IMG/VR virus record: IMGVR_UViG_3300032020_001000
Coordinates: 19,862 to 83,861 of that record
Length of the DNA: 64,000 nucleotides
Strand: one strand, 5' to 3'
From: a virus
The position numbers and the translations under genes are program-made. Shown here one piece after another: positions 11,050-37,932 of the stretch; positions within the stretch are counted from its first letter, which is position 1, and each line of letters begins with the position of its first letter. The notes beneath the pieces were generated by a model. That model had not been told where the DNA came from. It saw only the letters and a list, made by a program, of their open reading frames with translations, and made no database searches.

Positions 11050-12405
11050 ATGGCATTCCGGCGGGGAAAAGCGAAGGCCGAAGGACGGATAATTGGGATT
11101 CGCTTCAAGGTGAGCGACCCGAAGCCGGCCGACCTGGCGATGCTGAAGACGCTGGCAGCGCGCTGCCGCGAGTTGCGTTATCACCTCTTTGATTGGGCAG
11201 TCGCAAACGATGGTTCCGGGCCAGAGCACCTGCGCGCCATGTATTACGAGGCCGCCCGCTTGGCGCCCGATCTGTCGGCAGACATGAGAGGCACGATTGC
11301 CGGGGAAATACGCACGGCGATCAAGCAGTATCGCAAAGTGCAGCGCCAGGACCCGCTGGCGCGCCCCTTCGAGTTCAAGCGCGTCATCATTCCGGTCAAG
11401 GTCTCAAGCATCTATGAGTTGGCGCCAGAAGGGGCGAATGGTTATTGGCGGCTGCGTGTCGGACTATGGGCGAGGGGCGGCACTGAAGAAACCACGGCCA
11501 GTCTCCGTCTAGCCGCGGACACTAATCGCAACGGGGATGGCTATCAATTGGCGCACTACAATGCTGCGGTGGCCTGGGGACTGGAGGCAGGCTCCTCGCC
11601 GATAGGGGACGGTAAGATTGTGCTCCAACGCGGGAAGTGGCTCTACATTCAGGCCTTATCCTTGGCTCCGGTTATGGCGGTCGAGGGCCTGCGGGTTGCG
11701 GGGGTTGATGTGGGGCGCCATCATCTGGCAGTGGTGGCGATGCCCGAGAACGGAAAGACGGAGTTCGTGGGGCGTTACAATTGGGTGCGCGACTTGATCG
11801 CCGACCGCTGGCGGAAGACTCGTCTCTATCGTGCGGGCCTGCGGAAGCGCGCCAATGCCGAAAGCGATAGGGCGGCTGACAAGACAAAGACAATCTGTCA
11901 GCAGGTGGCGGCTCGCGTCGCGGATGTGCTCGTGCAGTGGGAGGCCACGCACGTGGCGATGGAAGACCTGACCGGCATGAGGGAGAGACTCGCGGAAAAG
12001 TTCGGCGAGGGCACCGAGGGAGCCGTCGTCAATGCGCGCTTCCCCTACTATAGATTGCAGGCGGCGATTGAGTATGCTTGCGGGAAGGTTGGGATTGCCA
12101 CCGTCAAGGTGGAGGCCAAATACAGTTCGCAGACGTGTTGGCGCTGCGGAGAAAGGGGCAAGCGGGATGGGCTAGAGTTTAGATGCGACGAGTGCGGCAA
12201 GGAGCATGCTGATGCAAATGCGGCCCGCGTGATAGCTCAGCGAGGTCGCGAAGAGGTGATGGCACAGATGGATCAAGCAAGGCCAGCGGTTCCGGCTGCT
12301 GGACCCCGGGCGCCTGTACGCCCGCACGCCGACGAAGCACAGGAGAGGCGGGAATCCTGTGCCGGTCTCGGCAATTGGCCGGAGAAAAATGAGGCTACGG
12401 TCTAG
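11050..12405 (+). CDS. TnpB/Cas12f-like RNA-guided nuclease (451 aa), CRISPR-adjacent
   Basis: RuvC-I GVDVG, RuvC-II AMEDL, Zn ribbon SQTCWRCG...FRCDECG, RuvC-III HADANAA; all three acidic catalytic residues present. Confidence 0.9.
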   Translation: MAFRRGKAKAEGRIIGIRFKVSDPKPADLAMLKTLAARCRELRYHLFDWAVANDGSGPEHLRAMYYEAARLAPDLSADMRGTIAGEIRTAIKQYRKVQRQDPLARPFEFKRVIIPVKVSSIYELAPEGANGYWRLRVGLWARGGTEETTASLRLAADTNRNGDGYQLAHYNAAVAWGLEAGSSPIGDGKIVLQRGKWLYIQALSLAPVMAVEGLRVAGVDVGRHHLAVVAMPENGKTEFVGRYNWVRDLIADRWRKTRLYRAGLRKRANAESDRAADKTKTICQQVAARVADVLVQWEATHVAMEDLTGMRERLAEKFGEGTEGAVVNARFPYYRLQAAIEYACGKVGIATVKVEAKYSSQTCWRCGERGKRDGLEFRCDECGKEHADANAARVIAQRGREEVMAQMDQARPAVPAAGPRAPVRPHADEAQERRESCAGLGNWPEKNEATV

Positions 12406-12566
12406 TGGGGCGCGCATTCACGGCCAACTACAGGCAGGCGGCCCCTGTGCGCTCGTGCCCCTGGGGTGTAGTGGGGCGCGCATTCACGGCCAACTACAGG
12501 CGCTCGCTCGCATAGGACGCGTTCTCAACCGCTGTAGTGGGGCGCGCATTCACGGCCAACTACAGG
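12399..12566 (+). CRISPR. CRISPR mini-array: three 36-bp repeats, two 30-bp spacers
   Basis: Repeat GSTSTAGTGGGGCGCGCATTCACGGCCAACTACAGG at 12399, 12465 and 12531; unique spacers 12435-12464 and 12501-12530; orientation inferred. Confidence 0.9.
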
Positions 12567-12600
12567 ACAGGGGAATAGGCAGACAGGAGAGGAGGATACG

Positions 12601-17911: not shown

Positions 17912-18591
17912 GGTGCTGGCCGGAAAATGAAGAACAACTCGCCGCCCCTATCCTGCCGTGGCTGGAGCAGCAGCACTGGGACGTGTACCAGGAAGTTCAG
18001 ATCCTAGCCTACGAGAGTGTTGCCGACATCGTGGCAATCCAGGGGCCCCTCATCTGGGTCATCGAGGTAAAGCGCAGCCTCGGGTTCCGGGTATGCGAGC
18101 AGGCGATTCGATGGCAGCAGATAGCCCACCTCGTCTCGGTGGCGGTGCCGGCCACCGAGCGGGGCGGCCGCGGGCCATTCGTCACCCACATGCTCCATCA
18201 TATCGGCCTCGGAGTTATCACGGCGCGAGAGCATGGCAGTCCACACGAGTTGCTGTCGGCGCGTCTGTGTCGGCGCACCGTGCCGGTGCTGACCGCCCGC
18301 CTGCGCAAAGCCTGCACCGAGGAGCGCAAGCACTTCGCGCGGGCCGGCAATGCGGAAGGCTTGCGCTACACGCCTTTTAGCGCCACCTGTCGAGCCGTGC
18401 TGGACTATGCGACGAAGCATCCCGGTGCCACCCTCAAGGAGGTGGTGGAGGGGATTGACCATCACTACCGCAGCGACACGACGGCGCGATCCTGCCTGGC
18501 CCAGTGGATTCGGGCTGGCAAGGTGCGCGGAGTAGTGGCGCGGCACGAGGGCCGGCTAATGCGGGTCTATGTGGCCCAGGAGAACACGTGA
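17908..18591 (+). CDS. PD-(D/E)XK nuclease-like protein with C-terminal HTH
   Basis: YQEV...ADIVA...IEVK...EQA pattern. Confidence 0.65.
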   Translation: MRCWPENEEQLAAPILPWLEQQHWDVYQEVQILAYESVADIVAIQGPLIWVIEVKRSLGFRVCEQAIRWQQIAHLVSVAVPATERGGRGPFVTHMLHHIGLGVITAREHGSPHELLSARLCRRTVPVLTARLRKACTEERKHFARAGNAEGLRYTPFSATCRAVLDYATKHPGATLKEVVEGIDHHYRSDTTARSCLAQWIRAGKVRGVVARHEGRLMRVYVAQENT

Positions 18592-18794
18592 TCGCTAATG
18601 ACCAGAGAGTGATGCGTTGCGGCAGCGGCTGGCCAACGGAAACCGGTAGATGCCTTCTGCGGGAGGGAGACATGTGTCGCAAGTGGCTGAGGATTGGTCG
18701 CCGCAGCAGCGATGGCGCGGTCTGCCTGCTGTCTCCAGGGGAGGTACGGGCGGTGCTGGCCTTCGCCGATGCCTACCGGAAAGGAGCGGACTAA
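18588..18794 (+). CDS. small Cys-rich hypothetical protein
   Basis: GTG coupled, AGGAG RBS. Confidence 0.45.
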   Translation: MIANDQRVMRCGSGWPTETGRCLLREGDMCRKWLRIGRRSSDGAVCLLSPGEVRAVLAFADAYRKGAD

Positions 18795-19276
18795 TGCTGA
18801 CCCTGACGCCCCGACAGATGGAGGCGCTGCGTGCTATCCGCGATCTGACGCGGCGGCGCGGCCCCACCATCCGAGAGCTGGGGAGAGCGCTCGGATTGTT
18901 GTCCACATGCACCACCTGGCGGCATGTGGATCGGCTCGTGGATAAGGGGATGGTGTGCAAAGGGGAGAGGGAGAACCGCGGCATCGAGCTGACGGCAGCA
19001 GGGATGGCTGAGCTGAATCCGGCCCCAGCCCCGGCAGTAGACGGCAACTTGTCGGTAGCAAGTTGCGGCGAGATGACGGCGGTCATGCGGATGCAGCGCT
19101 GGGATGGTTGGCGGATCGACCGCCTGGGAGACGTTGCCGTCAACGGCCCCGGCATCGGGTTTATCCCCGTGTATGCGACCGAGGAAGAGGCGCTGCGCGA
19201 TTTCCCGGACGGGCCGTTTGCGCGGATGCGCCTGTGCGAGAGTGATGGCGCGGCAGCAGAGGACTGTGCGGACTGA
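18794..19276 (+). CDS. LexA-like DNA-binding domain protein
   Basis: LTPRQ...PTIRELG..LGL.S..T...HV..L..KG...RGIEL; no peptidase domain. Confidence 0.75.
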   Translation: MLTLTPRQMEALRAIRDLTRRRGPTIRELGRALGLLSTCTTWRHVDRLVDKGMVCKGERENRGIELTAAGMAELNPAPAPAVDGNLSVASCGEMTAVMRMQRWDGWRIDRLGDVAVNGPGIGFIPVYATEEEALRDFPDGPFARMRLCESDGAAAEDCAD

Positions 19277-19323
19277 GGGGCGGGGCATTCTCGCCCTAGA
19301 AAGTGTTCCTGAGGGAGGGAGAC

Positions 19324-20001
19324 ATGCCGAAAAGAAAGGCAGCAAAAGGCGAGGTGGATGCGCGGGCATGGGCCTTACCGCAGAACTTCGTGCTCCACCG
19401 CAACCCGCGCAAGACATTGCGGGTGCGGATTATCGGCAAAGGGCCGCTCCTGGAGCAGAACCCGGCGCGAATGCGGGATGCGCATATCAAAACGAAAGAG
19501 CAGACGGGGCAGACCAAGAAGCGCCAGGCTTGGGATGCTGAGGCCGAATGCAAGGCCCATGTCCACCGACTGATGGATGGACGGCCGGGCGTACCCTGCA
19601 TTGCGCTCAAGAAGGCGATGGCCGCGACTGTTAGCGGGAAGGGCCAAGAGTGGTATGGGCGCCGAAAGGAACTCTACAGCGCCTTCTGGATTCGGGGCGA
19701 AGCCAATCAGGAGCAGGGCGGCATGGAATTGTTGCCCATTATCTCGCCCAACGGTGACTACGTGGTGGATCGTTCCTGGGTGCGCAACAGTGGCATCGGC
19801 CGCCCCATTGACGTGCGAGCCAGGCCGCGATGGGACAAGTGGGCGCTCGACGTAGAGATCGAGTTCAAGACTAGCGCCGGACTGACGGAGCAGACCCTGC
19901 TCGATATGCTCGATGAGGCTGGAGACCGGGGGATCGTCTCCCGCCGGCAGGAGAACAGCGGAGAGAACTATGGCACCTTCGAGGTGGCGGTGGAGGCATA
20001 A
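19324..20001 (+). CDS. RAMP/Cas7-like protein, candidate effector of the pentamer array
   Basis: VRIIGKGPLL, PCIALKKAM, RPRWDKWALDVEIEF and C-terminal Gly loop AGDRGIVSRR...GENYGTFEV resemble the RAMP motif order. Confidence 0.65.
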   Translation: MPKRKAAKGEVDARAWALPQNFVLHRNPRKTLRVRIIGKGPLLEQNPARMRDAHIKTKEQTGQTKKRQAWDAEAECKAHVHRLMDGRPGVPCIALKKAMAATVSGKGQEWYGRRKELYSAFWIRGEANQEQGGMELLPIISPNGDYVVDRSWVRNSGIGRPIDVRARPRWDKWALDVEIEFKTSAGLTEQTLLDMLDEAGDRGIVSRRQENSGENYGTFEVAVEA

Positions 20002-20006
20002 ACAGC

Positions 20007-20531
20007 ATGGTCAGGGAGAGCGGGGCGCAACTCGAAATCGGGGTTCGGCCAGGCTTCCATCTCAGCCAGGAGCAGGCCGAGCGATATGGGGCGCGGCTCT
20101 ACGAACTGATCCGGACGAAGCGCGGCATTCCCATCTCCGCCCGTGAGATCGTCGAAGCTGCCCGTTCATCGAGATCGGCGCTCCATGACTGGTTCACTTG
20201 GGACGACGGCGAGGCCGCCGAGCGTTGGCGCGAGGAGCAGGCCCGCAACTTGGCGCGGGCCATCCAGATCAACATCGTGGTCGAAGGCGGTGGCCCGCCT
20301 GTACCCGTGCGCGCCTTTGTCTATGTTGAGGACCGCGATGCCGAGGGCGAGCAGGCAGGCTATGTGCCACTGGCGGAGGCGCTCGGCGATGAGGCCCGGT
20401 ATGCCTATATCCTGGAGCGCGCATACCGGGAATATCGGGCACTTGCAATGAAACATCGGCACCTCAAGGAACTCAGCCGACTCTTCCCGGCGCGGGAGAT
20501 GGCGCGTTGGGATAAGCGGTTTCGAGGATAA
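20007..20531 (+). CDS. conserved phage protein between the RAMP-like gene and the array
   Basis: IVEAAR...LHDWFTWDD.EAAE.WR..QARNL motif; GGAGG RBS. Confidence 0.7.
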   Translation: MVRESGAQLEIGVRPGFHLSQEQAERYGARLYELIRTKRGIPISAREIVEAARSSRSALHDWFTWDDGEAAERWREEQARNLARAIQINIVVEGGGPPVPVRAFVYVEDRDAEGEQAGYVPLAEALGDEARYAYILERAYREYRALAMKHRHLKELSRLFPAREMARWDKRFRG

Positions 20532-20533
20532 GA

Positions 20534-20807
20534 TGCAGGAGAGCATGAGGCCAGGTGGAGCTGGGCCGGGCGCAGTCCGGCATGGCACGGTAGGGTTCCA
20601 AATTGCACGAGAGTATGCAGTTAGGCTGGGCGAGGCCAGGACTGGCACAGCCCAGTGCGGCAAGGTTCTGAATTGCAGGAGAGCATAGGGAGCGGCGTGG
20701 CCGGGCGGGGACTGATACGGCATGGATCAGTGAGCTAAGGTTTCCGAATTCCAGGAGAGCATGAGGCTTGGCTTGGCACGGCGAGGCAAGGCGAGGTCGA
20801 GTAAGGA
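20534..20807 (+). repeat. array of four units: header TTGCAGGAGAGCAT plus 9-11 NN-(G/A)G(Y) pentamers (candidate guide RNAs)
   Basis: Pentamer tracts 20547-20596, 20617-20666, 20687-20741 and 20763-20807; periods 70, 70 and 76 bp. Confidence 0.85.
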
Positions 20808-20814
20808 TTGCCGC

Positions 20815-21306
20815 ATGAGAATCATGGGTATTGACCTCGGCAATCCGGGCGCGCTGGCCATCCTGAGCGATGATCAGCCCGGCAAGCCGCGGGTCGTGGC
20901 AACCGCCTCCTGGGGGCACACGACCGGCCTGCACCTCCAGGAGATGATCCTTGCCCTGGGACGCGAGCACGGCGTGGAGCTGGTGGCGACCGAGCGACCA
21001 GGGAGCTGGGGCAGGCGATCGGTGGGAATGTCGCAGCGGGGCAAGCAGGAGGTGGTGCGGGCGGCCTGCCAGGCGCTGCGAGTACACCTTGTGGATTACC
21101 AACCACGGACGATCCGGGCGGCGCTCGGAGTCAGGGCTCAGGCCGCGGAGGGGAAACGGCAGGTCGGGCGCTGTGTTAAACTGCTGGTCAAGATTGACAG
21201 CGACAATGAGCATGTGCTCGACGCCTGCGCTCTGGCCCTGGTAGCGCTGAACCGGGAGGGGTCGCGGCGGAGGATGCTCGCCGCAAAGGTACGGAGCCAA
21301 TTATGA
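20815..21306 (+). CDS. RuvC-like Holliday junction resolvase
   Basis: MRIMGIDLG, ATERP, P.TIR, EHVLDACALA. Confidence 0.75.
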   Translation: MRIMGIDLGNPGALAILSDDQPGKPRVVATASWGHTTGLHLQEMILALGREHGVELVATERPGSWGRRSVGMSQRGKQEVVRAACQALRVHLVDYQPRTIRAALGVRAQAAEGKRQVGRCVKLLVKIDSDNEHVLDACALALVALNREGSRRRMLAAKVRSQL

Positions 21307-22193
21307 TCGATCCATCCTCGATGCGACTGTGGCTGCCGCACGTTGAGCGGCTGGGGATTCCAAGTCCGCGCACGATTCTCGTGGTGGAGCCGGAGCCCGG
21401 ATTCCTGGATCGCCTTCTCTTGGCGGCAATCGATGCAGTGGAGGGCGGCGGCGAACCTCTGGATGCCCGGGCCGCAGAGTTCGTGGGCGACGTTACGAAG
21501 GCTGTGGATGGCGTGGGCTATCCAGCATTCCTACGCACGGACCTCTGCAGCGGGAAGCATCAGTGGAGGGACACCTGCTTCGTCGCGGCGCCAGGGCACG
21601 TCTACTCGCATGTGCTGGCCCTGATTGAGTTCGGGATGAACGCTGATATGCTGGGGCTGCAGCATACAGCGATCGCCGCGCGCCAGTACCTCTACCTTGA
21701 CGCCCCATTCGCCGCCTACCGCGGGTTACCGATTGCGGCGGAGCGCCGATATTTCGTGCGCGAGGGCCGGGTGCTGTGTCACCATCCATACTGGGAACGC
21801 GAGGCAGTGGCGGCAGGCTATCCGTGGTGCGCCGAATGGGAACGGCACCTGGAGCGTCTCAACCGGGAGGAGGACGACGAGGTTGCCACGCTCACCGGAT
21901 TCGCGGCGGCAGTAGGGGGAGCGCTTGGCGGCTTCTGGAGCATCGACTTCGCGCGCGATGCGGGGGGCAAGTGGTGGTTGATCGATATGGCGGTGGGCGG
22001 AGAGTCCTGGCATCCCAGAGGCCCATGTCCAGAGGTTACAGTATGCGCCATATGCAGCGGCGTCATCGACGAGGAATATCCATCGAGGCACGCAGGATGC
22101 GCGGCCGCTGGCCGACGACCGAAGGCCGCTGCTGCTGATGATGCTGATGATGATGCTGATGATGATGCTGATGATACGGAGCCGCGCAAGTGA
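21303..22193 (+). CDS. ATP-grasp-fold protein
   Basis: FLRTD..SGKH, ERRYFV, WSIDF...WWLIDM; acidic tail. Confidence 0.65.
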   Translation: MIDPSSMRLWLPHVERLGIPSPRTILVVEPEPGFLDRLLLAAIDAVEGGGEPLDARAAEFVGDVTKAVDGVGYPAFLRTDLCSGKHQWRDTCFVAAPGHVYSHVLALIEFGMNADMLGLQHTAIAARQYLYLDAPFAAYRGLPIAAERRYFVREGRVLCHHPYWEREAVAAGYPWCAEWERHLERLNREEDDEVATLTGFAAAVGGALGGFWSIDFARDAGGKWWLIDMAVGGESWHPRGPCPEVTVCAICSGVIDEEYPSRHAGCAAAGRRPKAAAADDADDDADDDADDTEPRK

Positions 22194-26755: not shown

Positions 26756-27478
26756 ATGCAGATGATCCCGCGCAACCGCATCCGTGAGAACCCCTGGAAC
26801 CCCAATGCCTTCGACCCCGAGAACTATGCGAAGCTGGTCGAAAGCATCCGGGAGAAGGGCTTCCTCGAGCCGCTGAAGGTGATGATCGATCCCGCCTCCG
26901 CAATGGCGCGGGGCGGCGATGGCAATCTGGACGACGTCGAGTACCTGCTCATCGATGGTTACCATCGCTGGATGGCGGCCGGAGACCTCGGCATCGATGG
27001 AGTGCCCTGCGATGTGTGGGACATCACCATCGAGGAGGCCAAGATCCGCGGCCTGCAGTTGAACTATCTGCGCGGGCAGCCGGTGCCGCAGCGCCTGGCG
27101 GGGCTCGTGCACGAGCTCAATGCGGCATACTCGATGGAGGACCTCGCTGGCATGCTGCCGTGGTCGGTGTCGGAGCTCGAGGACTCGATGGAGCTGCTGC
27201 GGTTGCCGGCGGACCTCGAGAGGCAGATGCGCGCCGCCGCCGCGGCGCAAGAAGCAGTGGCGCCGGTGCCGGTGACCGTGGTGCTGCTGGGCGCGGAGCA
27301 CGAGACATTCCAACGGGCGATGGCGGCGGCGAAGGCGGCGCTGGGCCGGAGCGCCCGGCGCGGGCAATGCCTGGCCGAGATCTGCGGGCGCTACCTAGAG
27401 GCGGCGGGACTGAGCGACTTTGAGGGGCCGCCTGCGCAGGCCGAGGCAGAGGAGGACGCGGCACATGCGCCAGGATGA
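26756..27478 (+). CDS. ParB N-terminal-domain protein
   Basis: NPWNPN, LVESIREKG, IDGYHRW. Confidence 0.82.
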   Translation: MQMIPRNRIRENPWNPNAFDPENYAKLVESIREKGFLEPLKVMIDPASAMARGGDGNLDDVEYLLIDGYHRWMAAGDLGIDGVPCDVWDITIEEAKIRGLQLNYLRGQPVPQRLAGLVHELNAAYSMEDLAGMLPWSVSELEDSMELLRLPADLERQMRAAAAAQEAVAPVPVTVVLLGAEHETFQRAMAAAKAALGRSARRGQCLAEICGRYLEAAGLSDFEGPPAQAEAEEDAAHAPG

Positions 27479-31784: not shown

Positions 31785-32318
31785 ATGAGATGGGTAGTCG
31801 TTGTGGCGGTGCTGTTGCTGATAGCAGGAATTGGCTGGAGCGCAGGCGATGAAGCAGGACGCGACCTTTCGGTGGCAGTCCTTTACGGTCAGGGCTCCAG
31901 CGGCGGTGATGCAGCGTTTGGTATGGAACTGATCGGGGGTCGCGGCGCAGATTGGGATGGAGTGGCGCTGTGGCTTTCGGGCAAGCCCTTCCAGGGAGAG
32001 GATGTGATTGACACATCCATTCCGCATGGCGACTATCGCGTCCGCGAGGAGCACGGATCGATTGGGCTGCAGTACCTGCATGGATCGGGAACTCCGCGCG
32101 CGCTGGCCATCGTCGGTGTCGGCTTCATCATGGATGAGACCCGCTACATTCAAGTTTCCAACGTCACGGGCTGGGAGTGGGCCGGCGGATCTGATACGCA
32201 TTACGAGGTGACCGCACAGGTCGGCGGCCGCCTGCAGCTTGCGCCCGGGCTCAGCTTGCGCGCGGGCTATGATAGCCATTACCGCGCCTTTGGCGGCCTG
32301 GCCTTTCAATCGCGGTAG
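31785..32318 (+). CDS. outer-membrane beta-barrel-like protein
   Basis: Signal peptide; alternating Gly/aromatic strands; C-terminal GGLAFQSR. Confidence 0.6.
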   Translation: MRWVVVVAVLLLIAGIGWSAGDEAGRDLSVAVLYGQGSSGGDAAFGMELIGGRGADWDGVALWLSGKPFQGEDVIDTSIPHGDYRVREEHGSIGLQYLHGSGTPRALAIVGVGFIMDETRYIQVSNVTGWEWAGGSDTHYEVTAQVGGRLQLAPGLSLRAGYDSHYRAFGGLAFQSR

Positions 32319-32408
32319 GGGCTATAACGACACCAGGCAGGGGAGACCGGGGCACACGCGGGCAGCTGCGGGGCAACCGCAAGGGCTGTGTGTGGACCCG
32401 CCCTCGTG

Positions 32409-32417
32409 TGGTATAAT
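32409..32417 (+). promoter_or_regulatory. extended -10 promoter upstream of the methylase/terminase operon
   Basis: TGGTATAAT followed by a GC hairpin; no consensus -35. Confidence 0.5.
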
Positions 32418-32481
32418 CGAGACGGGCCGCCTGCGGGAAAACTGTGGGCGGCCCGGCTTGTGGCCCTGCCTGGAGAGTGCA

Positions 32482-33948
32482 TTGACTGAACCGACCGACT
32501 GGTTGCGCCTGCCGCTCGAGCGGCTGCTGGCGAATCCGCGCAACTACCGCAGGCATCCCGAGGCGCAGATCGCGGCGCTCCGCGCCAACCTCAGTCGTCA
32601 TGGGCAGCAGAAGCCCGTGGTGATCCGCTCGGACGACACGATCCTGGCCGGCCACGCGCTGGTGGAGGCGGCGCGGCAGTCGGGCTGGAGCGAGATCGGC
32701 ATACGCGTCTACGACGGCACCGCCCCCGACGCATTCCTGGTCGACGATAACGAGTCGGTGCGCCTGGCAGAGGATGATGACCAGGCACTCGCCGGGCTGC
32801 TGCGAGAGCGCATGGAGGCGGGGACGCTGGACTCCACGGGCTGGGGAGAGGATGAGGTGCGGGCGCTGCTCGAGCGCATCGAGGCGGAGCAGCACCAGGT
32901 GCAGGGCGAAGATCCGGGGCCGGGGGAGGCGCCGGCGGAGCCGGTAACGCGCCCGGGCGACTTATGGCTGCTGGGCGAGCACCGGCTGCTGTGCGGTGAC
33001 TGCATGGTCGAGGGCGACATCGACCGCCTCATGGCCGGCGAGAAGGCCGGGTGCTGCGTGACGTCGCCGCCCTACGCCATGCAGCGAGAATCGACGTACG
33101 GCGGCACCCCCGCCTCCGATTATCCCGCCTGGTTCCGGCGCGTGGCAGCCCAGGTGTGGAGCGCGCTCGATGAGGCCGGCAGTTTCTTTCTGAACCTCAA
33201 AGAACACGTCGAGGATGGCCAGCGCAGCCTCTACGTCATGCGTACGGTGATCGCTCTCGTCGAGGCGGGTTGGCGCTACGTGGATCAGCTGATCTGGGTG
33301 AAGCCCGGGCTGCCGGGCGAGCACTACCCGCGCTTGAAGAATGACTTCGAGCCGATTCATTTCTTCGCGCGGCAGGACGCCGTCAACTGGCAAGTGCGGG
33401 TTGTGGACATGAACCGCGACTGGCTGGCGGAGACCGACTTCAACCTGGCGGAGATGTATGAGGACATCTTCCAGTTCTCCAAGCAGTTCCGGATCAGGTT
33501 CCGACCGCGCGCAGTGGGGCACCGAAGCACGGGCGTTCCTGAGTATCAAGGGCCCGGCGGCTCCTACGGCCCCAGCGGGAACATCAGCCTGAACGATGAT
33601 GTGCGAGTCTCAGGCATCGCGCGCCCGGGCAACGTGCAGCATTTTGGACTAAATCGTGAATCCTTCGATCATCCGGCGGTGTTCCCGGTGGCGCTGCCGG
33701 CCTTCTTCATGCGCTTGACCACCGAGGAAGGCGGGCTGACCTTCGAACCCTTCTCCGGCGCGGGCACGACCATCATCGCCGCGGAGCAGAACCAGCGCCG
33801 ATGCGTCGCCGTGGAACTGGTGCCGGCCTACTGCGACGTCGCTATCGAGCGCTGGCAGCGCATGACCGGACGCCCAGTGTCCCATGCGGAGACAGGCAGA
33901 ACCTTCGCCGAGTACACTCAGGAGCGTGCTCAGGGCGGCGCAGAGTGA
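32482..33948 (+). CDS. ParB-domain fused N4/N6 DNA methyltransferase
   Basis: NPRNYRRH, AGH, HRLLCGD, TSPPY, HPAVFP, EPFSGAGTT; TTG start after GGAGA. Confidence 0.88.
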   Translation: MTEPTDWLRLPLERLLANPRNYRRHPEAQIAALRANLSRHGQQKPVVIRSDDTILAGHALVEAARQSGWSEIGIRVYDGTAPDAFLVDDNESVRLAEDDDQALAGLLRERMEAGTLDSTGWGEDEVRALLERIEAEQHQVQGEDPGPGEAPAEPVTRPGDLWLLGEHRLLCGDCMVEGDIDRLMAGEKAGCCVTSPPYAMQRESTYGGTPASDYPAWFRRVAAQVWSALDEAGSFFLNLKEHVEDGQRSLYVMRTVIALVEAGWRYVDQLIWVKPGLPGEHYPRLKNDFEPIHFFARQDAVNWQVRVVDMNRDWLAETDFNLAEMYEDIFQFSKQFRIRFRPRAVGHRSTGVPEYQGPGGSYGPSGNISLNDDVRVSGIARPGNVQHFGLNRESFDHPAVFPVALPAFFMRLTTEEGGLTFEPFSGAGTTIIAAEQNQRRCVAVELVPAYCDVAIERWQRMTGRPVSHAETGRTFAEYTQERAQGGAE

Positions 33949-36551: not shown

Positions 36552-36567
36552 GCATTAGGAGGAGAGC

Positions 36568-37932
36568 ATGGCCATTGATTTCCGCGTCTACCCGCCCGAG
36601 CGAGAGAAAACGCGCATCGAAGGGTACGTCCGCTACGAGAAGCTGTTTCTGGGGCAGCACCGGGAATTGTATGCGGCGCGGCCGGGCCGATACCAGCTAG
36701 CTCGCTACATCGCGGTCAACATGCCGGGCATGATCTCGCGGCTATGTGCCGACCTGCTGTTTGGCGAGCAGCCCGACTTCACAGCCACTGAGGATGCGAC
36801 GCAGGAGGCGCTGGATGATCTGGTACAGCGCAACAACCTGCACACCCTCAACTATGAGTCCGCCTTGGCGAACTCCTTCCGCGGCGACGCGGTGTACAAG
36901 GTGCGCTGGGGCAAGCGCACCCCGCAGGCGGAGCTACCGGAGGCCATCATCGAGGAGGTGCCGCCCGCCATCTACTTCCCTGAGATCGATGAGGACGATG
37001 TGAGGAGAGTGAGGAGGGTGACCCTGGCTTGGCTCAAGATCGATCCGGCCAACCCTCAGTTGCGCTACCTGCGGATGGAGGAGCATGAACCCGGCGTGGT
37101 CCGGAATCGGCTGCTGCGCTTCGCCGACAGAGGGGCGACGCAGGAGGAGATGCCGCTCACGATCTTCTCGGCCTATGAGGGACTCGAGCCTGAGGTGGCA
37201 ACGGGGCTGAGTGTGATCCCAATCTTCCACATCCCGAACTTCGTGTATGGGAGCCGCTTCTGGGGGATCAGCGACTACGAGGGGTTGGAGACCCTGTTCG
37301 AGGCGCTCAATGACCGGGTGACGCAGTGCGACGATGTGCTCAGCAAGCACGTGGCGCCGAAGCTGGTGGTGCCGCCGCGCTTCGTCGACGAGGAGGGGAA
37401 GGTCAAACTGGGCGAGCTGGAGGTCGTGCAGCTCGACCCCGGAGAGCCGGCGCCGACCTACGTCACGTGGGATGCGCACCTGACCGCAGCGATGGCACAC
37501 TTGGACCGCTTGATGGACTTCATCTTCATCATCTCCGAGACAGCGCCTGCCGCGTTCGGGCTGGACAAATATGGCGTGGCCGAGTCGGGCAGGGCATTGC
37601 GGCTGCGCCTGCTGCGTACGCTCGCCAAGGTCAATCGCAAGCGGTTGTACTATGATCGCGCCCTGAAAGCGGCCCTGCTATGCGCGCAGCAGCTCGAGGT
37701 GGTGCACGGCGGCGCGTCCTATGAACCCCAGGAGCCCGTCATTGGCTGGGCGGACGGCCTGCCGGAGGACATGTTCGAGCTGGTGCAGATGGAGGCCCAG
37801 CGGCTGACGGCCGGCAACACGAGCCTCGAGTCCAGCATCCGCCGCCTGGATGGCCCCGATGCGGTCGAGGCTGAGATGGAGAGGATCGCCGAGGACCTGG
37901 GGCAGGCGACGACGCTGACGGGGCAGGGATAA
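36568..37932 (+). CDS. portal protein (SPP1-like)
   Basis: ADLLFGE, WGISDY, YVTWD, SGRALR, W.DGLP.D; position after terL. Confidence 0.9.
   Translation: MAIDFRVYPPEREKTRIEGYVRYEKLFLGQHRELYAARPGRYQLARYIAVNMPGMISRLCADLLFGEQPDFTATEDATQEALDDLVQRNNLHTLNYESALANSFRGDAVYKVRWGKRTPQAELPEAIIEEVPPAIYFPEIDEDDVRRVRRVTLAWLKIDPANPQLRYLRMEEHEPGVVRNRLLRFADRGATQEEMPLTIFSAYEGLEPEVATGLSVIPIFHIPNFVYGSRFWGISDYEGLETLFEALNDRVTQCDDVLSKHVAPKLVVPPRFVDEEGKVKLGELEVVQLDPGEPAPTYVTWDAHLTAAMAHLDRLMDFIFIISETAPAAFGLDKYGVAESGRALRLRLLRTLAKVNRKRLYYDRALKAALLCAQQLEVVHGGASYEPQEPVIGWADGLPEDMFELVQMEAQRLTAGNTSLESSIRRLDGPDAVEAEMERIAEDLGQATTLTGQG

What the first reader, a model, noticed from the sequence alone, without database searches (positions are those of the whole stretch)
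19324..20807. Candidate non-CRISPR RNA-guided system: RAMP/Cas7-like gene, partner gene and an NN-GGY pentamer array
Seen: right after the stop of 20007-20531 lie four units. Each has a conserved header (consensus AATTGCAGGAGAGCAT) and then 10, 10, 11 and 9 pentamers in strict register. Each pentamer is a variable dinucleotide followed by a near-constant triplet (mostly GGC/GGT, sometimes AGY or GGA). Unit 1 reads GA-GGC CA-GGT GG-AGC TG-GGC CG-GGC GC-AGT CC-GGC AT-GGC AC-GGT AG-GGT. Variation is concentrated in the dinucleotides, and a 5-nt period does not fit protein coding. The upstream 225-aa protein has the motif order of a RAMP fold, including a C-terminal Gly loop (AG..G...R...G.YG.F.V). 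Established: RAMP/Cas7 proteins polymerise along guide RNAs with a fixed nucleotide step. Inference: each unit is a ~70-nt guide coated by one subunit per pentamer, with the constant triplet bound by protein and the NN presented for target pairing. No cas1, cas2, cas3 or cas10 was seen. I recall a similar GGY/NN phage architecture being reported recently under the name VIPR; I cannot verify that here, so novelty must be checked.
Basis: partly seen in the sequence, partly recalled or inferred. Interest (0 to 1): 0.95.

Follow-up and report, generated by a model that had tools for sequence, protein, structure and literature searches.

The report
VIPR guide-RNA system in a provirus
This is a new example of the recently described phage-borne VIPR system, in which a small Cas7-like protein uses guide RNAs built of GGY/NN five-base repeats, and one of its four guides matches a gene at the head of the packaging genes of rival phages.

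Summary
Between the stop of 20007-20531 and the start of the next gene lie four tracts of in-register NN-GGY pentamers, separated by a conserved block of about 25 nt. No other array like it occurs in the window on either strand.

VIPR (Viral Interference Programmable Repeat) was published in three 2026 bioRxiv preprints.

- **Protein:** a profile of the 225-aa protein's family hits the solved SUSP1 Vipr structure (PDB 36pp, E 6.3e-16; hhalign 98.8%).
- **Partner gene:** it is homologous to the gene that follows Vipr homologues in cluster-F mycobacteriophages, but not to SUSP1 vap1.
- **Relatives:** homologous loci elsewhere also carry pentamer arrays.
- **Targets:** under the published 1-nt-skip code, guide 1 has 36 exact hits in IMG/VR. 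All fall in one ParB_N(-methylase) gene, in frame, with the skipped bases at wobble positions. Three control patterns gave 1, 1 and 0 hits. Guides 2-4 have no identified target.
- **Setting:** a tailed provirus from a sediment metagenome.

Verdict: a new member of a known kind. RNA expression and the protein fold could not be tested. The published VIPR type could not be assigned because the supplements were closed.

The parts
19324..20001 (+). vipr: 225-aa Vipr (minimal RAMP) homologue
   Evidence: No Pfam match. phrog_4652, E 1.8e-11. 298 cluster representatives at E<=1e-3. A profile of 98 family members (A1) hits PDB 36pp_D 'SUSP1 Vipr protein' at E 6.3e-16, covering chain residues 3-190 of 202. 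hhalign of A1 against the SUSP1 vipr ORF gives probability 98.8%, E 8.8e-17, over 171 columns. R167 (equivalent to SUSP1 R138), G203 and G217 are invariant in 98 of 98 members, and R208 (equivalent to R179) in 97 of 98.
20007..20531 (+). vap-like accessory gene, 174 aa, function unknown
   Evidence: phrog_15946, E 5.7e-14, with no Pfam match. It is 27% identical (E 3e-8) to gp52, the gene that follows the Vipr homologue in mycobacteriophage Saal. It has 7 other homologues sharing the motif PLHxxFxWDDxxAAxxxRxxQA. It shows no similarity to SUSP1 vap1 (hhalign probability 0.1%) and no PDB hit. Atlas neighbours are viral hypothetical proteins.
20518..20546 (+). constant block B0; carries a 5-6 nt insertion and overlaps the vap stop codon
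   Evidence: Alignment of the five blocks; header match at 20532.
20547..20591 (+). guide tract 1 (vr1): 9 variable NN-GGY units
   Evidence: Pentamer layout. Under the 1-nt-skip pattern it has 36 exact hits in IMG/VR, all in one ParB_N-family gene and in frame. Controls gave 1, 1 and 0 hits.
20592..20616 (+). constant block B1 (25 nt)
20617..20661 (+). guide tract 2 (vr2): 9 variable units
   Evidence: Layout. No target found: 0 exact hits in IMG/VR and 7 unrelated hits in metagenome contigs.
20662..20686 (+). constant block B2 (25 nt)
20687..20736 (+). guide tract 3 (vr3): 10 variable units, the most degenerate tract
   Evidence: Layout. No exact hits in IMG/VR or in metagenome contigs. No hits at <=2 mismatches in 401 Verrucomicrobiota genomes.
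20737..20762 (+). constant block B3 (26 nt)
20763..20802 (+). guide tract 4 (vr4): 8 variable units
   Evidence: Layout. Its 41 IMG/VR hits for 16 specified bases fall into 25 nucleotide-context clusters whose flanking peptides look unrelated, mostly in AT-rich contigs, which is the level expected by chance.
20803..20826 (+). degenerate terminal block B4; overlaps the RBS-like AAGGA and the ATG (20815) of the RuvC-like gene
   Evidence: Alignment; sequence. RuvC-like gene 20815-21306: PF02075 E 4.5e-4 and phrog_159 E 6.4e-11.
32239..33948 (+). context: the provirus's own ParB_N + DNA methyltransferase gene, a diverged homologue of the vr1 target; vr1 does not match it
   Evidence: tblastn of the target ORFs hits here at 26-38% identity. 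phrog_498, E 8e-75, plus ParB-like families. The best self-score of vr1 anywhere in the record is 13 of 18.

Best explanation
The locus 19324-20826 is a VIPR (Viral Interference Programmable Repeat) system carried by a tailed provirus.

**Proposed mechanism.**
- The 225-aa Vipr protein is a minimal RAMP related to Cas7. By homology to SUSP1 Vipr it would polymerise, one protomer per pentamer, along each of four vrRNAs.
- The array has no sigma-70-like promoters or terminators of its own. It is probably transcribed with vipr, vap and the downstream RuvC-like gene and then cut within the five constant blocks.
- Each protomer pair would sequester the GGY triplet and present the NN dinucleotide. 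The concatenated NNs read double-stranded DNA with one target base skipped between pairs, and binding blocks transcription.

**Predicted target.** Guide 1 (9 units, 18 informative bases) is predicted to bind the coding strand's complement about 120-310 nt (codons 40-104) from the preceding in-frame stop, in the ORFs not cut at their 5' end, of a ParB_N(-DNA methylase) gene. In the two target loci examined this gene sits directly upstream of the terminase and portal genes of other phages. The named genomes that carry it are Verrucomicrobiota. Because the skipped bases fall on wobble positions, synonymous drift in the rival does not break the match.

**What is shown and what is inferred.**
- Shown here: the array, the homology to Vipr, the conserved partner gene, arrays at homologous loci, and the in-silico match pattern.
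- Inferred: RNA expression and processing, filament formation, repression, and the biological role in competition between phages.
- Unknown: the targets of guides 2-4 and the function of the partner protein.
For: **The array is real and unique in the window**.

**The protein is a Vipr.**
- The family profile hits the solved SUSP1 Vipr at E 6.3e-16, and hhalign gives 98.8% probability.
- The thumb Arg (R167) and the G-loop residues G200, G203, R208 and G217 are conserved.

**The layout matches SUSP1.** The gene order vipr, vap, array is the same as in phage SUSP1 (KT454805.2). There my relaxed caller recovers the one upstream and three downstream vrRNAs that the paper reports (paper read).

**Related loci carry arrays too.**
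- The partner gene is homologous to the gene after the Vipr homologue in mycobacteriophage Saal.
- The 2 mycobacteriophage loci examined, out of 27 phage records with a match, both have NNGGC arrays of about 250 nt directly upstream of the homologue.
- 3 of the 5 Verrucomicrobiota loci have arrays within 1.5 kb.

**Guide 1 behaves as the 1-nt-skip code predicts.**
- It has 36 exact IMG/VR hits. These comprise 15 distinct 26-mers, 25 distinct 146-nt contexts and 12 nucleotide-level clusters.
- All 36 lie in one protein family, in the NNx codon frame, inside ORFs of 132-577 aa.
- The 0-nt skip, the 2-nt skip and the reversed unit order gave 1, 1 and 0 hits.
- The match begins and ends exactly with the 9 variable units. 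The conserved 10th unit does not match.

**The target makes biological sense.**
- It has a ParB_N domain, fused in some cases to an N6_N4 methylase.
- In 2 of 2 loci examined it lies just upstream of terminase small subunit, terminase large subunit and portal.
- The provirus's own homologue (32239-33948, just upstream of its terminase large subunit gene) is diverged and unmatched.
- No self-target exists in the 83.9-kb record at skips of 0-2 nt (best 12-15 of 16-20). At 3 nt the only full scores are the guides' own loci. This agrees with the paper's finding of no self-targeting.

**The context is a phage.** IMG/VR classes the record as a provirus, and terminase, portal, MuF and tape-measure genes are present. 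No Cas1 was found.
Against: **No direct evidence of function.** No RNA data exist: the only run holding this DNA is the sediment metagenome it probably came from. The fold could not be predicted, so 'RAMP fold' rests on sequence homology to a solved Vipr.

**The array and protein deviate from the type case.**
- 14 of 40 units depart from strict GGY: 7 AGY, 5 GGA, and one each of GAT and GCT.
- The protein has minority residues at positions that contact G1 and G2 in SUSP1. These are Q45 for H17, S206 for D177 and R207 for W178, plus V205 and Q209. Constant-triplet recognition may therefore differ or be weakened.
- The constant block has only a weak 3-bp hairpin with no covariation. It has no Rfam match and nothing like the SUSP1 pseudoknot tail.
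- The partner gene is unrelated to SUSP1 vap1.

**The guide-1 target is a candidate, not proof.**
- An 18-base gapped pattern is expected to find roughly one independent exact hit in IMG/VR by chance (controls 1, 1 and 0; vr2 gave 0). By my own arithmetic on the collection size, about 17 are expected in the 596-Gb genome collection.
- Conserved genes multiply a single chance event. The same pattern hits a conserved Campylobacterota gene in 10 species and a conserved Gemmatimonadota/Latescibacterota element in 5.
- Among 30 loci with homologues of the target protein from 401 Verrucomicrobiota genomes, only the pre-selected one scores 18 of 18. At the other loci where the best-scoring site lies in the homologous motif, it scores 11-14.

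**Guides 2-4 have no identified target**.
Confidence: 0.88

Rival explanations
1. A decaying or inactive VIPR remnant. The genes and array descend from a VIPR system but no longer work, because the G-loop has lost its G-contact residues and many units have drifted from GGY.
For: 14 of 40 units are not strict GGY, and tract 3 has only 5 of 11. The protein has minority states at Q45, V205, S206, R207 and Q209. Three of the four guides have no detectable target.
Against: Both ORFs are intact with good ribosome-binding sites. The invariant family residues are all kept. The paper itself notes that vrRNAs often have internal degeneracy and that related consensus motifs exist. The SUSP1 arrays read also contain off-consensus units. 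Guide 1 keeps a perfect 18 of 18 match to a conserved phage gene.
Confidence: 0.07
2. The four 70-nt repeats act at the DNA level, for example as iterons or binding sites for a phage DNA-binding protein, or as a leader that regulates the RuvC-like gene. They are not guide RNAs.
For: The direct repeats have regular 70/70/76 spacing. The last block overlaps the RBS and start of the RuvC-like gene. ParB-like and LexA-like genes lie nearby.
Against: Iterons conserve their whole sequence. Here conservation has a strict 5-nt phase, with hypervariable NN and a constant triplet. The same kind of array accompanies Vipr homologues in unrelated phages at different positions: upstream in mycobacteriophages, downstream in SUSP1 and in L119/L122.
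Confidence: 0.03
3. The pentamer phasing is a chance product of GC-rich, low-complexity sequence, or the region encodes a small protein.
For: The genome is 65% G+C. A 51-aa ORF (20533-20688) and a long antisense ORF cross the region.
Against: The array is the only place in 64 kb on either strand that reaches the phasing score, and it exceeds all 30 Markov simulations. A 5-nt period is incompatible with a reading frame. The array is adjacent to a Vipr homologue.
Confidence: 0.01

Closest known systems
VIPR system of Escherichia phage SUSP1 (type II VIPR; bioRxiv 10.64898/2026.04.26.720920 and 10.64898/2026.04.26.720927; PDB 36pp)
   Same: - The Vipr proteins are homologous.
- The gene order is vipr, a small accessory gene, then a downstream array of vrRNAs on the same strand.
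- The guides are GGY/NN pentamer tracts of 9-12 units.
- The setting is a phage, with no Cas1 gene.
- The guide-1 match obeys the 1-nt-skip rule, with skipped bases at wobble positions, as the paper reports for natural SUSP1 targets.
   Different: - Identity is only about 21% across the profile alignment.
- The accessory gene is unrelated to vap1.
- SUSP1 vrRNA units are about 110-165 nt apart. Each has a long conserved leader, a ~40-nt tail described as a pseudoknot and a T-run (paper).
- Here the units are 70-76 nt apart, joined only by a 25-26-nt block, with no sigma-70-like promoter or terminator. The whole array is packed between a stop codon and the next start codon.
- The G-loop reads GIVSRRQ here, against GVGDWRP in SUSP1.
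- SUSP1 guides target a satellite. Here the candidate target is a ParB_N(-methylase) gene of other phages.
Uncharacterised vipr/partner pairs of cluster-F mycobacteriophages (Cheoctovirus: Saal gp51/gp52, Brocalys gp45/gp46)
   Same: Both genes are homologous to the window's pair: Vipr at 29% identity, E 1e-10, and the partner at 27%, E 3e-8. NNGGC pentamer arrays lie next to the pair.
   Different: The array is one continuous tract of about 250 nt upstream of vipr, not four spaced tracts downstream of the partner. It sits between the antirepressor and excisionase genes of the immunity region. GenBank annotates these genes as hypothetical proteins. The main text of the discovery paper does not mention Mycobacterium, and its supplements were not seen.
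Class 1 CRISPR-Cas backbone (Cas7 filament on crRNA)
   Same: A RAMP protein with RRM, G-loop and thumb polymerises along a guide RNA at a fixed step and flips bases out at regular intervals. This comes from the VIPR papers. A set of N variable tracts flanked by N+1 constant blocks, with a degenerate last block, is laid out like a CRISPR array.
   Different: The step is 5 nt rather than 6. Only 2 of every 5 guide bases pair, and the target is read with a 1-nt gap. There is no Cas1, no other cas gene in the neighbouring ORFs scanned, and no palindromic CRISPR repeats. The Vipr family has no Pfam Cas7 match.

Membership tests
VIPR | A Vipr protein homologous to the founding Vipr/RAMP family | tested here: met
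   A1 profile against PDB 36pp_D 'SUSP1 Vipr protein': E 6.3e-16. hhalign against the SUSP1 ORF: probability 98.8%, E 8.8e-17. The single sequence alone finds nothing in the PDB.
VIPR | RAMP fold: RRM core, glycine-rich loop and thumb | not testable with these tools
Indirect evidence only: sequence homology to a solved Vipr, and a conserved G-loop (G200, G203, R208, G213, G217) and thumb Arg R167. Atlas structural neighbours are unnamed viral proteins.
VIPR | Residues that hold the GGY bases in SUSP1 (H17, R138, D177, W178, R179) | tested here: inconclusive
   R138 corresponds to R167 and R179 to R208, and both are kept. H17 becomes Q45, D177 becomes S206 and W178 becomes R207. All three are minority states that do occur in the family: Q in 7, S in 5 and R in 9 of 98 members.
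VIPR | vrRNA locus: at least 4 tandem YNNGG units with a conserved GGY and a hypervariable NN | tested here: met
   Four tracts of 9-11 units. 26 of 40 units are strict GGY and 33 of 40 are RGY. NN entropy is 1.94 and 1.96 bits, against 0.67 and 0.34 bits for the two G positions. The paper's criterion was read.
VIPR | An invariable, structured 3' tail after the repeat tract | tested here: inconclusive
   A conserved 25-26-nt block follows each tract, in degenerate form after the last one. It has only a 3-bp hairpin with no covariation and no Rfam match. Whether it lies at the 5' or 3' end of the mature RNA is unknown.
VIPR | A minimal locus of vipr plus one accessory (vap) gene with no cas genes, on a virus or provirus | tested here: met
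   Two adjacent genes and the array. No Cas1 in the record. The record is an IMG/VR provirus with terminase, portal and tape-measure genes. Which of vap1-6 the partner is could not be decided because the supplements were closed. It is not vap1.
VIPR | Target recognition by the 1-nt-skip noncontiguous code | tested here: met
   In silico only. vr1 has 36 convergent exact hits with a 1-nt skip, against 1 (0-nt skip), 1 (2-nt skip) and 0 (reversed order). The caveat about amplification of a single chance event applies. Guides 2-4 gave nothing.
VIPR | vrRNAs are expressed and co-purify with Vipr, and binding represses transcription | not testable with these tools
   No RNA run holds this DNA. This needs bench work.
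CRISPR-Cas (class 1) | A CRISPR repeat-spacer array with contiguous spacers, plus the cas1/cas2 adaptation genes | tested here: not met
   The array is made of pentamer tracts, not spacers. Cas1 is absent. cas2 was not searched for. A separate three-repeat, 36-37-nt array lies 8 kb upstream, next to a TnpB-like gene. It is not part of this locus.

The most novel reading that the evidence does not exclude
This locus may represent a VIPR architecture not yet characterised. It would differ in four ways.
- A compact, CRISPR-like array of four guide tracts flanked by five short constant blocks, the last one degenerate. It is co-transcribed inside an operon and processed, rather than made of separate transcription units with pseudoknot tails.
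- An accessory-protein family unrelated to SUSP1 vap1 but shared with mycobacteriophages.
- A re-modelled G-loop (GIVSRRQ) that tolerates RGY and GGA triplets.
- A guide aimed at the first gene of rival phages' packaging operon, a new class of natural VIPR target.

The seven published types may already cover this. Their definitions are in supplements I could not read.
Probability: 0.2. Interest if true: 0.55.

Novelty: new member of a known kind. Interest (0 to 1): 0.36.

Why it matters
VIPR was first reported in 2026. All experimental work so far is on the E. coli phage SUSP1 and Pseudomonas fulva prophage systems (type II), plus small-RNA sequencing of representative type III and V loci.

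This locus extends the family to an uncultivated sediment provirus. Its guide-1 target occurs in Verrucomicrobiota, which hints at the host but does not establish it. The Vipr is very divergent: the closest cluster representative is 38% identical.

The locus offers three testable things:
- a natural guide/target pair in which wobble-phased recognition of a conserved peptide motif (EQGWRAPIT) holds across at least 12 nucleotide-divergent lineages of rival phages;
- a compact array that looks processed rather than separately transcribed;
- natural variation at the residues that read the GGY triplet.

It also shows that the two-gene module is shared with well-studied cluster-F mycobacteriophages, where experiments would be easy. 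It does not change the picture of what VIPR is.

Tried and rejected
**Homologue searches**
- Single-sequence searches were uninformative. Pfam gave nothing. phmmer against the PDB gave only chance hits. The word-indexed homologue search found only the protein itself. The search for related loci with the single protein found nothing in viral contigs.
- Pfam on all 98 members of A1 gave no shared family.

**Partner protein**
- A profile of the partner found nothing in the PDB.
- hhalign against SUSP1 vap1 was negative.
- Atlas neighbours are unnamed viral proteins.

**The constant block**
- The idea that it is a ribozyme, as in the hammerhead-interspersed arrays the paper mentions, was rejected. 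Rfam at E<=10 gave only two sub-threshold, unrelated matches.
- TRF sees only a 22-nt stretch with a 10-nt period, so standard tandem-repeat finders miss the array.
- No sigma-70-like promoter and no terminator within the locus was found in 18500-21500.
- The whole array folds only marginally better than shuffles (z = -1.98).

**Targets of guides 2-4**
- Exact 1-nt-skip patterns gave 0 hits for vr2 and 0 for vr3 in IMG/VR.
- In metagenome contigs, vr3 gave 0 hits and vr2 gave 7 unrelated hits, many with stops in frame.
- vr4 gave 41 scattered hits in AT-rich contigs.
- None of the three matched at 3 or fewer mismatches (scores at or above 15/18, 17/20, 13/16 were looked for) in the 231 kb fetched around vr1 hits, apart from one vr4 site at 13 of 16, which I read as chance.
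- None of the three matched at <=3 mismatches in five whole target virus records.
- vr3 gave 3 hits at 3 mismatches in 1 of 5 Verrucomicrobiota genomes, against 1 control hit. It gave 0 hits at <=2 mismatches in 401 genomes, against 1 control hit.
- Mismatch-tolerant scans of the big collections were not possible.

**Other checks**
- No self-target was found.
- The five target virus records examined have no Vipr homologue. The same profile does find G000 and SUSP1.
- Few genes are shared between G000 and the fetched target loci: 2 ORFs at 24-31% identity. The targets are therefore not close relatives.
- No RNA holder was listed for the locus.
- The VIPR type (I-VII) could not be assigned. Those files may also already list this kind of locus or the mycobacteriophage loci.
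- L120 and L123, two of the five Verrucomicrobiota Vipr loci, showed no array within the flanks held, with either the strict or the relaxed caller. I did not extend them.

**Papers: what I saw**
- 10.64898/2026.04.26.720920: abstract and outline, the whole Results, methods sections 18, 20, 26 and 27, and passages found by term.
- 10.64898/2026.04.26.720927: abstract and outline, sections 5 and 6.
- 10.64898/2026.10.15.759431: abstract and outline, methods section 17.
- The search listings showed no other group's report of such a system. One further preprint (10.64898/2026.10.21.760802) mentions vrRNA once and was not read.

Full report
**1. The observation**

The + strand carries a 225-aa ORF at 19324-20001 and, 5 nt later, a 174-aa ORF at 20007-20531. 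From the stop codon of the second ORF to the ATG of a RuvC-like gene at 20815 there are 283 bases.

These bases consist of four tracts of five-base units in strict register. Each tract is preceded by a near-identical 15/16-mer, with start-to-start spacings of 70, 70 and 76.

Across the 40 units:
- 26 triplets are strict GGY, 33 are RGY and 31 are GGN.
- The two N positions carry 1.94 and 1.96 bits of entropy.
- The two G positions carry 0.67 and 0.34 bits.

All 14 places in the 64-kb window, on either strand, where at least 6 of 10 in-register pentamers are NNGGY lie at 20537-20768. The maximum there is 8. Thirty Markov-simulated windows reached 4 to 6. Tandem Repeats Finder sees almost none of this.

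- The last units of each tract (AG/AA-GGT/GGA, then TC/TT) are conserved and belong to the constant part. The variable guides are therefore 9, 9, 10 and 8 units.
- There are five constant blocks around four tracts. The first carries an insertion and overlaps the stop codon of 20007-20531. The last is degenerate and overlaps the ribosome-binding site and ATG of the RuvC-like gene.

**2. What is already known**

The discovery preprint (10.64898/2026.04.26.720920; Results and four methods sections read) describes Viral Interference Programmable Repeat systems:
- A minimal RAMP protein, Vipr, usually comes with one accessory gene (vap).
- vrRNAs are made of 9-16 YNNGG repeats followed by a constant 3' tail.
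- The systems occur mostly on phages and proviruses.
- The NN dinucleotides read double-stranded DNA with one target base skipped between pairs, and binding represses transcription.
- Natural targets are competing mobile elements, and the skipped bases fall on codon wobble positions.

The structural preprint (10.64898/2026.04.26.720927, sections 5-6) shows one protomer per repeat. GGY is held by H17, R138, D177, W178 and R179 of SUSP1 Vipr, and the NN is presented for pairing.

A third preprint (10.64898/2026.10.15.759431, abstract and one methods section) shows phage-satellite competition. It argues that codon-phased recognition prevents escape by mutation.

**3. The protein**

The 225-aa protein has no Pfam match and only a PHROG of unknown function (phrog_4652, E 1.8e-11).
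- The exhaustive representative search found 298 cluster representatives at E<=1e-3. The closest was 38% identical.
- I aligned 98 full-length members (A1). Long repetitive hits and fragments were left out.
- The A1 profile hits one PDB sequence, 36pp chain D 'SUSP1 Vipr protein', at E 6.3e-16, covering chain residues 3-190 of 202. The next hit has E 1.4.

I then fetched phage SUSP1 (KT454805.2, an accession recalled and confirmed by its description) and located its vipr with the same profile. hhalign of A1 against it gives 98.8% probability, E 8.8e-17, over 171 columns.

Residue mapping from that alignment:
- The thumb arginine R138 corresponds to R167, invariant in 98 of 98 members.
- R179 corresponds to R208, kept in 97 of 98.
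- The G-loop glycines G200, G203, G213 and G217 are kept.
- The window's protein has minority residues at three SUSP1 base-contact positions: Q45 for H17, S206 for D177 and R207 for W178. The adjacent V205 and Q209 are also minority states. Its G-loop reads GIVSRRQ, where the family majority reads G[IVL]GEWRP.

Whether this relates to the many AGY and GGA units in the array is speculation.

**4. The partner gene and related loci**

The 174-aa partner matches phrog_15946 and seven other proteins sharing a PLHxxFxWDDxxAAxxxRxxQA motif. It has no PDB or Pfam relatives. It is not related to SUSP1 vap1.

It is, however, homologous to the gene that follows the Vipr homologue in mycobacteriophage Saal (27% identity, E 3e-8).

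tblastn of the Vipr protein against 50,697 phage records hit 27 records. All are Mycobacterium phages, at about 29% identity. In the two I examined (Saal and Brocalys), an intergenic stretch of about 250 nt directly upstream of the homologue is packed with NNGGC pentamers.

In a sample of 401 Verrucomicrobiota genomes, 5 have a family match.
- Three of the five have pentamer tracts within the 1.5-kb flanks held. In L119 and L122 these lie directly downstream of vipr with no accessory gene. In L121 they lie upstream.
- Two of the five, L120 and L123, showed none.

As a positive control, the relaxed caller recovers the one upstream and three downstream vrRNAs of SUSP1.

**5. Context**

The window is bases 19862-83861 of an 83,861-bp IMG/VR record. 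It is classed as a provirus and estimated complete. The only sequencing run that holds it is a sediment metagenome, probably its source.

The window encodes terminase large subunit, portal, MuF-like minor head protein, Ig-domain tail proteins and a tape measure. It is therefore a tailed phage.

No Cas1 is present in the record. No sigma-70-like promoter and no terminator within the locus was found in 18500-21500. SUSP1 differs: each vrRNA unit there has a long conserved leader and a tail ending in a T-run. The array here is thus probably co-transcribed with its neighbours and processed. This is inference.

The layout of N tracts flanked by N+1 blocks with a degenerate last block resembles a CRISPR array. 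The block has only a 3-bp hairpin without covariation and no Rfam match.

Its first half (ARGGTTYC..AATT) resembles what follows the tracts in L122 (CATGGTTYT.ATT).

**6. Targets**

I turned each variable tract into the published 1-nt-skip pattern and looked for matches.

*Self-targeting.* In the provirus itself, no guide scores above 15 of 20 at skips of 0-2 nt. At a 3-nt skip the only full scores are the guides' own loci.

*Exact scans of IMG/VR.*
- vr1 (18 specified bases): 36 hits.
- vr2 (18 bases): 0 hits.
- vr3 (20 bases): 0 hits.
- vr4 (16 bases): 41 hits.

*The vr1 hits.* All 36 lie in one protein family, in the frame where the skipped base is the third codon position. They read [DE][QH]GWRAPIT within ..LAxIIxEQGWRAPITVSxRSGxIVR, inside ORFs of 132-577 aa.
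- They comprise 15 distinct 26-mers, 25 distinct 146-nt contexts and 12 clusters that share few 9-mers.
- All eight skipped positions but one vary.
- The match starts at the first variable unit and ends at the ninth. The conserved tenth unit does not match.

*Controls with the same dinucleotides.* The 0-nt skip gave 1 hit, the 2-nt skip gave 1 hit and the reversed unit order gave 0 hits.

*The vr4 hits.* They fall into 25 nucleotide-context clusters whose flanking peptides look unrelated, mostly in AT-rich contigs. That is what chance predicts for 16 bases.

*The target gene.* It is a ParB_N-domain gene, fused in some contigs to an N6_N4 DNA methylase.
- In both loci I annotated, it lies directly upstream of, and co-directional with, terminase small subunit, terminase large subunit and portal.
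- The provirus has the same arrangement with its own ParB_N-methylase gene (32239-33948) ahead of its terminase large subunit gene (34563). That gene is only 26-38% identical to the targets, and vr1 does not match it.
- Five target virus records examined have no Vipr homologue.

*Host hint.* In the species-genome collection the vr1 pattern has 33 hits. Ten are in the same ParB-like gene. Nine of those ten are in MAGs named as Verrucomicrobiota lineages and one is in an unnamed 'bacterium'. This hints at the host phylum.

**7. How strong is the target claim?**

It is not proof, for three reasons.
- An 18-base gapped pattern should find about one independent exact match in IMG/VR by chance (controls 1, 1 and 0; vr2 gave 0). 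By my own arithmetic on the collection size, about 17 are expected in the 596-Gb genome collection.
- A single chance event in a conserved gene is multiplied by homologues. The same pattern hits a conserved Campylobacterota gene (FGxKEGCLFYEQGCRAPMTH) in 10 species and a conserved Gemmatimonadota/Latescibacterota element in 5.
- Among 30 loci holding homologues of the target protein from 401 Verrucomicrobiota genomes, only the pre-selected one scores 18 of 18. At the other loci where the best-scoring site lies in the homologous motif, it scores 11-14. vr1 is therefore specific to one sub-clade.

Several points favour a real target:
- It is the only event in the viral collection.
- It is far more amplified than any vr4 chance cluster: 36 hits and 15 variants, against at most 6 hits and 3 variants.
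- It is a phage gene in a plausible position for a transcriptional roadblock.
- The match boundaries coincide with the variable part of the guide.
- The provirus's own homologue is spared.

I put the target assignment at roughly 0.6.

Guides 2-4 remain without targets after further scans of metagenome contigs, five whole target viruses and Verrucomicrobiota genomes.

**8. Verdict**

The locus is a VIPR system. The protein is a Vipr homologue, the array fits the vrRNA definition, and the gene layout and viral setting fit. Related loci carry arrays, and one guide behaves as the published code predicts.

It is a new and divergent member of a known kind, not a new kind. Compared with the characterised SUSP1 system it differs in four respects:
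- a compact, apparently co-transcribed array with short constant blocks;
- an unrelated accessory gene, shared with cluster-F mycobacteriophages;
- an atypical G-loop;
- a relaxed constant triplet.

Whether these differences fall inside one of the seven published types cannot be decided without the paper's supplements, which were closed.

Untested here: RNA expression, processing, RNP formation, repression and the fold.

The scan's other notes on this genome include a first-reader note that the NN strings might spell gapped targets (e1-6123831). I tested that idea here and it agrees with my result.

Noticed in passing
window 11050-12567: A 451-aa TnpB-like ORF (phrog_506 'transposase', E 6.4e-19) ends inside the first of three 36-37-nt direct repeats spaced 66 nt apart, at 12399-12567. 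The same phage may therefore carry a second, unrelated RNA-guided system. Another first-reader note (e1-6122603) flagged this.
   Followed up: partly
L002 2576-2833 (Mycobacterium phage Saal, NC_023580.1 about 36566-36823) and L003 2590-2833 (phage Brocalys): Cluster-F mycobacteriophages (Cheoctovirus) carry a Vipr homologue (gp51 / gp45) and a homologue of the window's partner gene (gp52 / gp46). A continuous NNGGC pentamer array of about 250 nt lies upstream, between the antirepressor and excisionase genes. All are annotated as hypothetical proteins. The main text of the VIPR discovery paper does not mention Mycobacterium. These loci would be an easy experimental model.
   Followed up: partly
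L092, L095, L097, L099, L100, L104, L106, L109, L113, L115 (Campylobacterota genomes): The vr1 gapped pattern also matches, exactly and in frame, a conserved gene reading FGxKEGCLFYEQGCRAPMTH in 10 Sulfurimonas/Helicobacteraceae-type genomes. From memory it resembles a hydrogenase small subunit. I read this as a chance peptide resemblance multiplied by conservation. It shows how exact-hit counts can mislead.
   Followed up: no
L088, L091, L094, L101, L108 (Gemmatimonadota and Latescibacterota MAGs): Five vr1 pattern hits fall in a conserved element whose NNx frame contains stop codons (RIQIxAxLSPE[HQ]G[W*]RAP[MI]T[RL]GA*). It may be a conserved non-coding RNA or a gene in another frame. It was not identified.
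   Followed up: no
L122 1505-2200 and L119 940-2118 (Verrucomicrobiota genomes G115, G165): These Vipr homologues are followed directly by pentamer tracts with no accessory gene. They lie next to head-morphogenesis or terminase-like genes (my reading of the ORF translations and sequence, not checked by a family search) rather than in an early or immunity region.
   Followed up: partly
window 20803-20817: The last, degenerate constant block of the array supplies the AAGGA ribosome-binding site and the ATG of the downstream RuvC-like gene. Processing of the array RNA could therefore affect translation of that gene.
   Followed up: no
window 26756-27478: A second ParB_N-like ORF of 240 aa in the provirus is also weakly similar to some vr1 target proteins, at 25-30% identity.
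   Followed up: no
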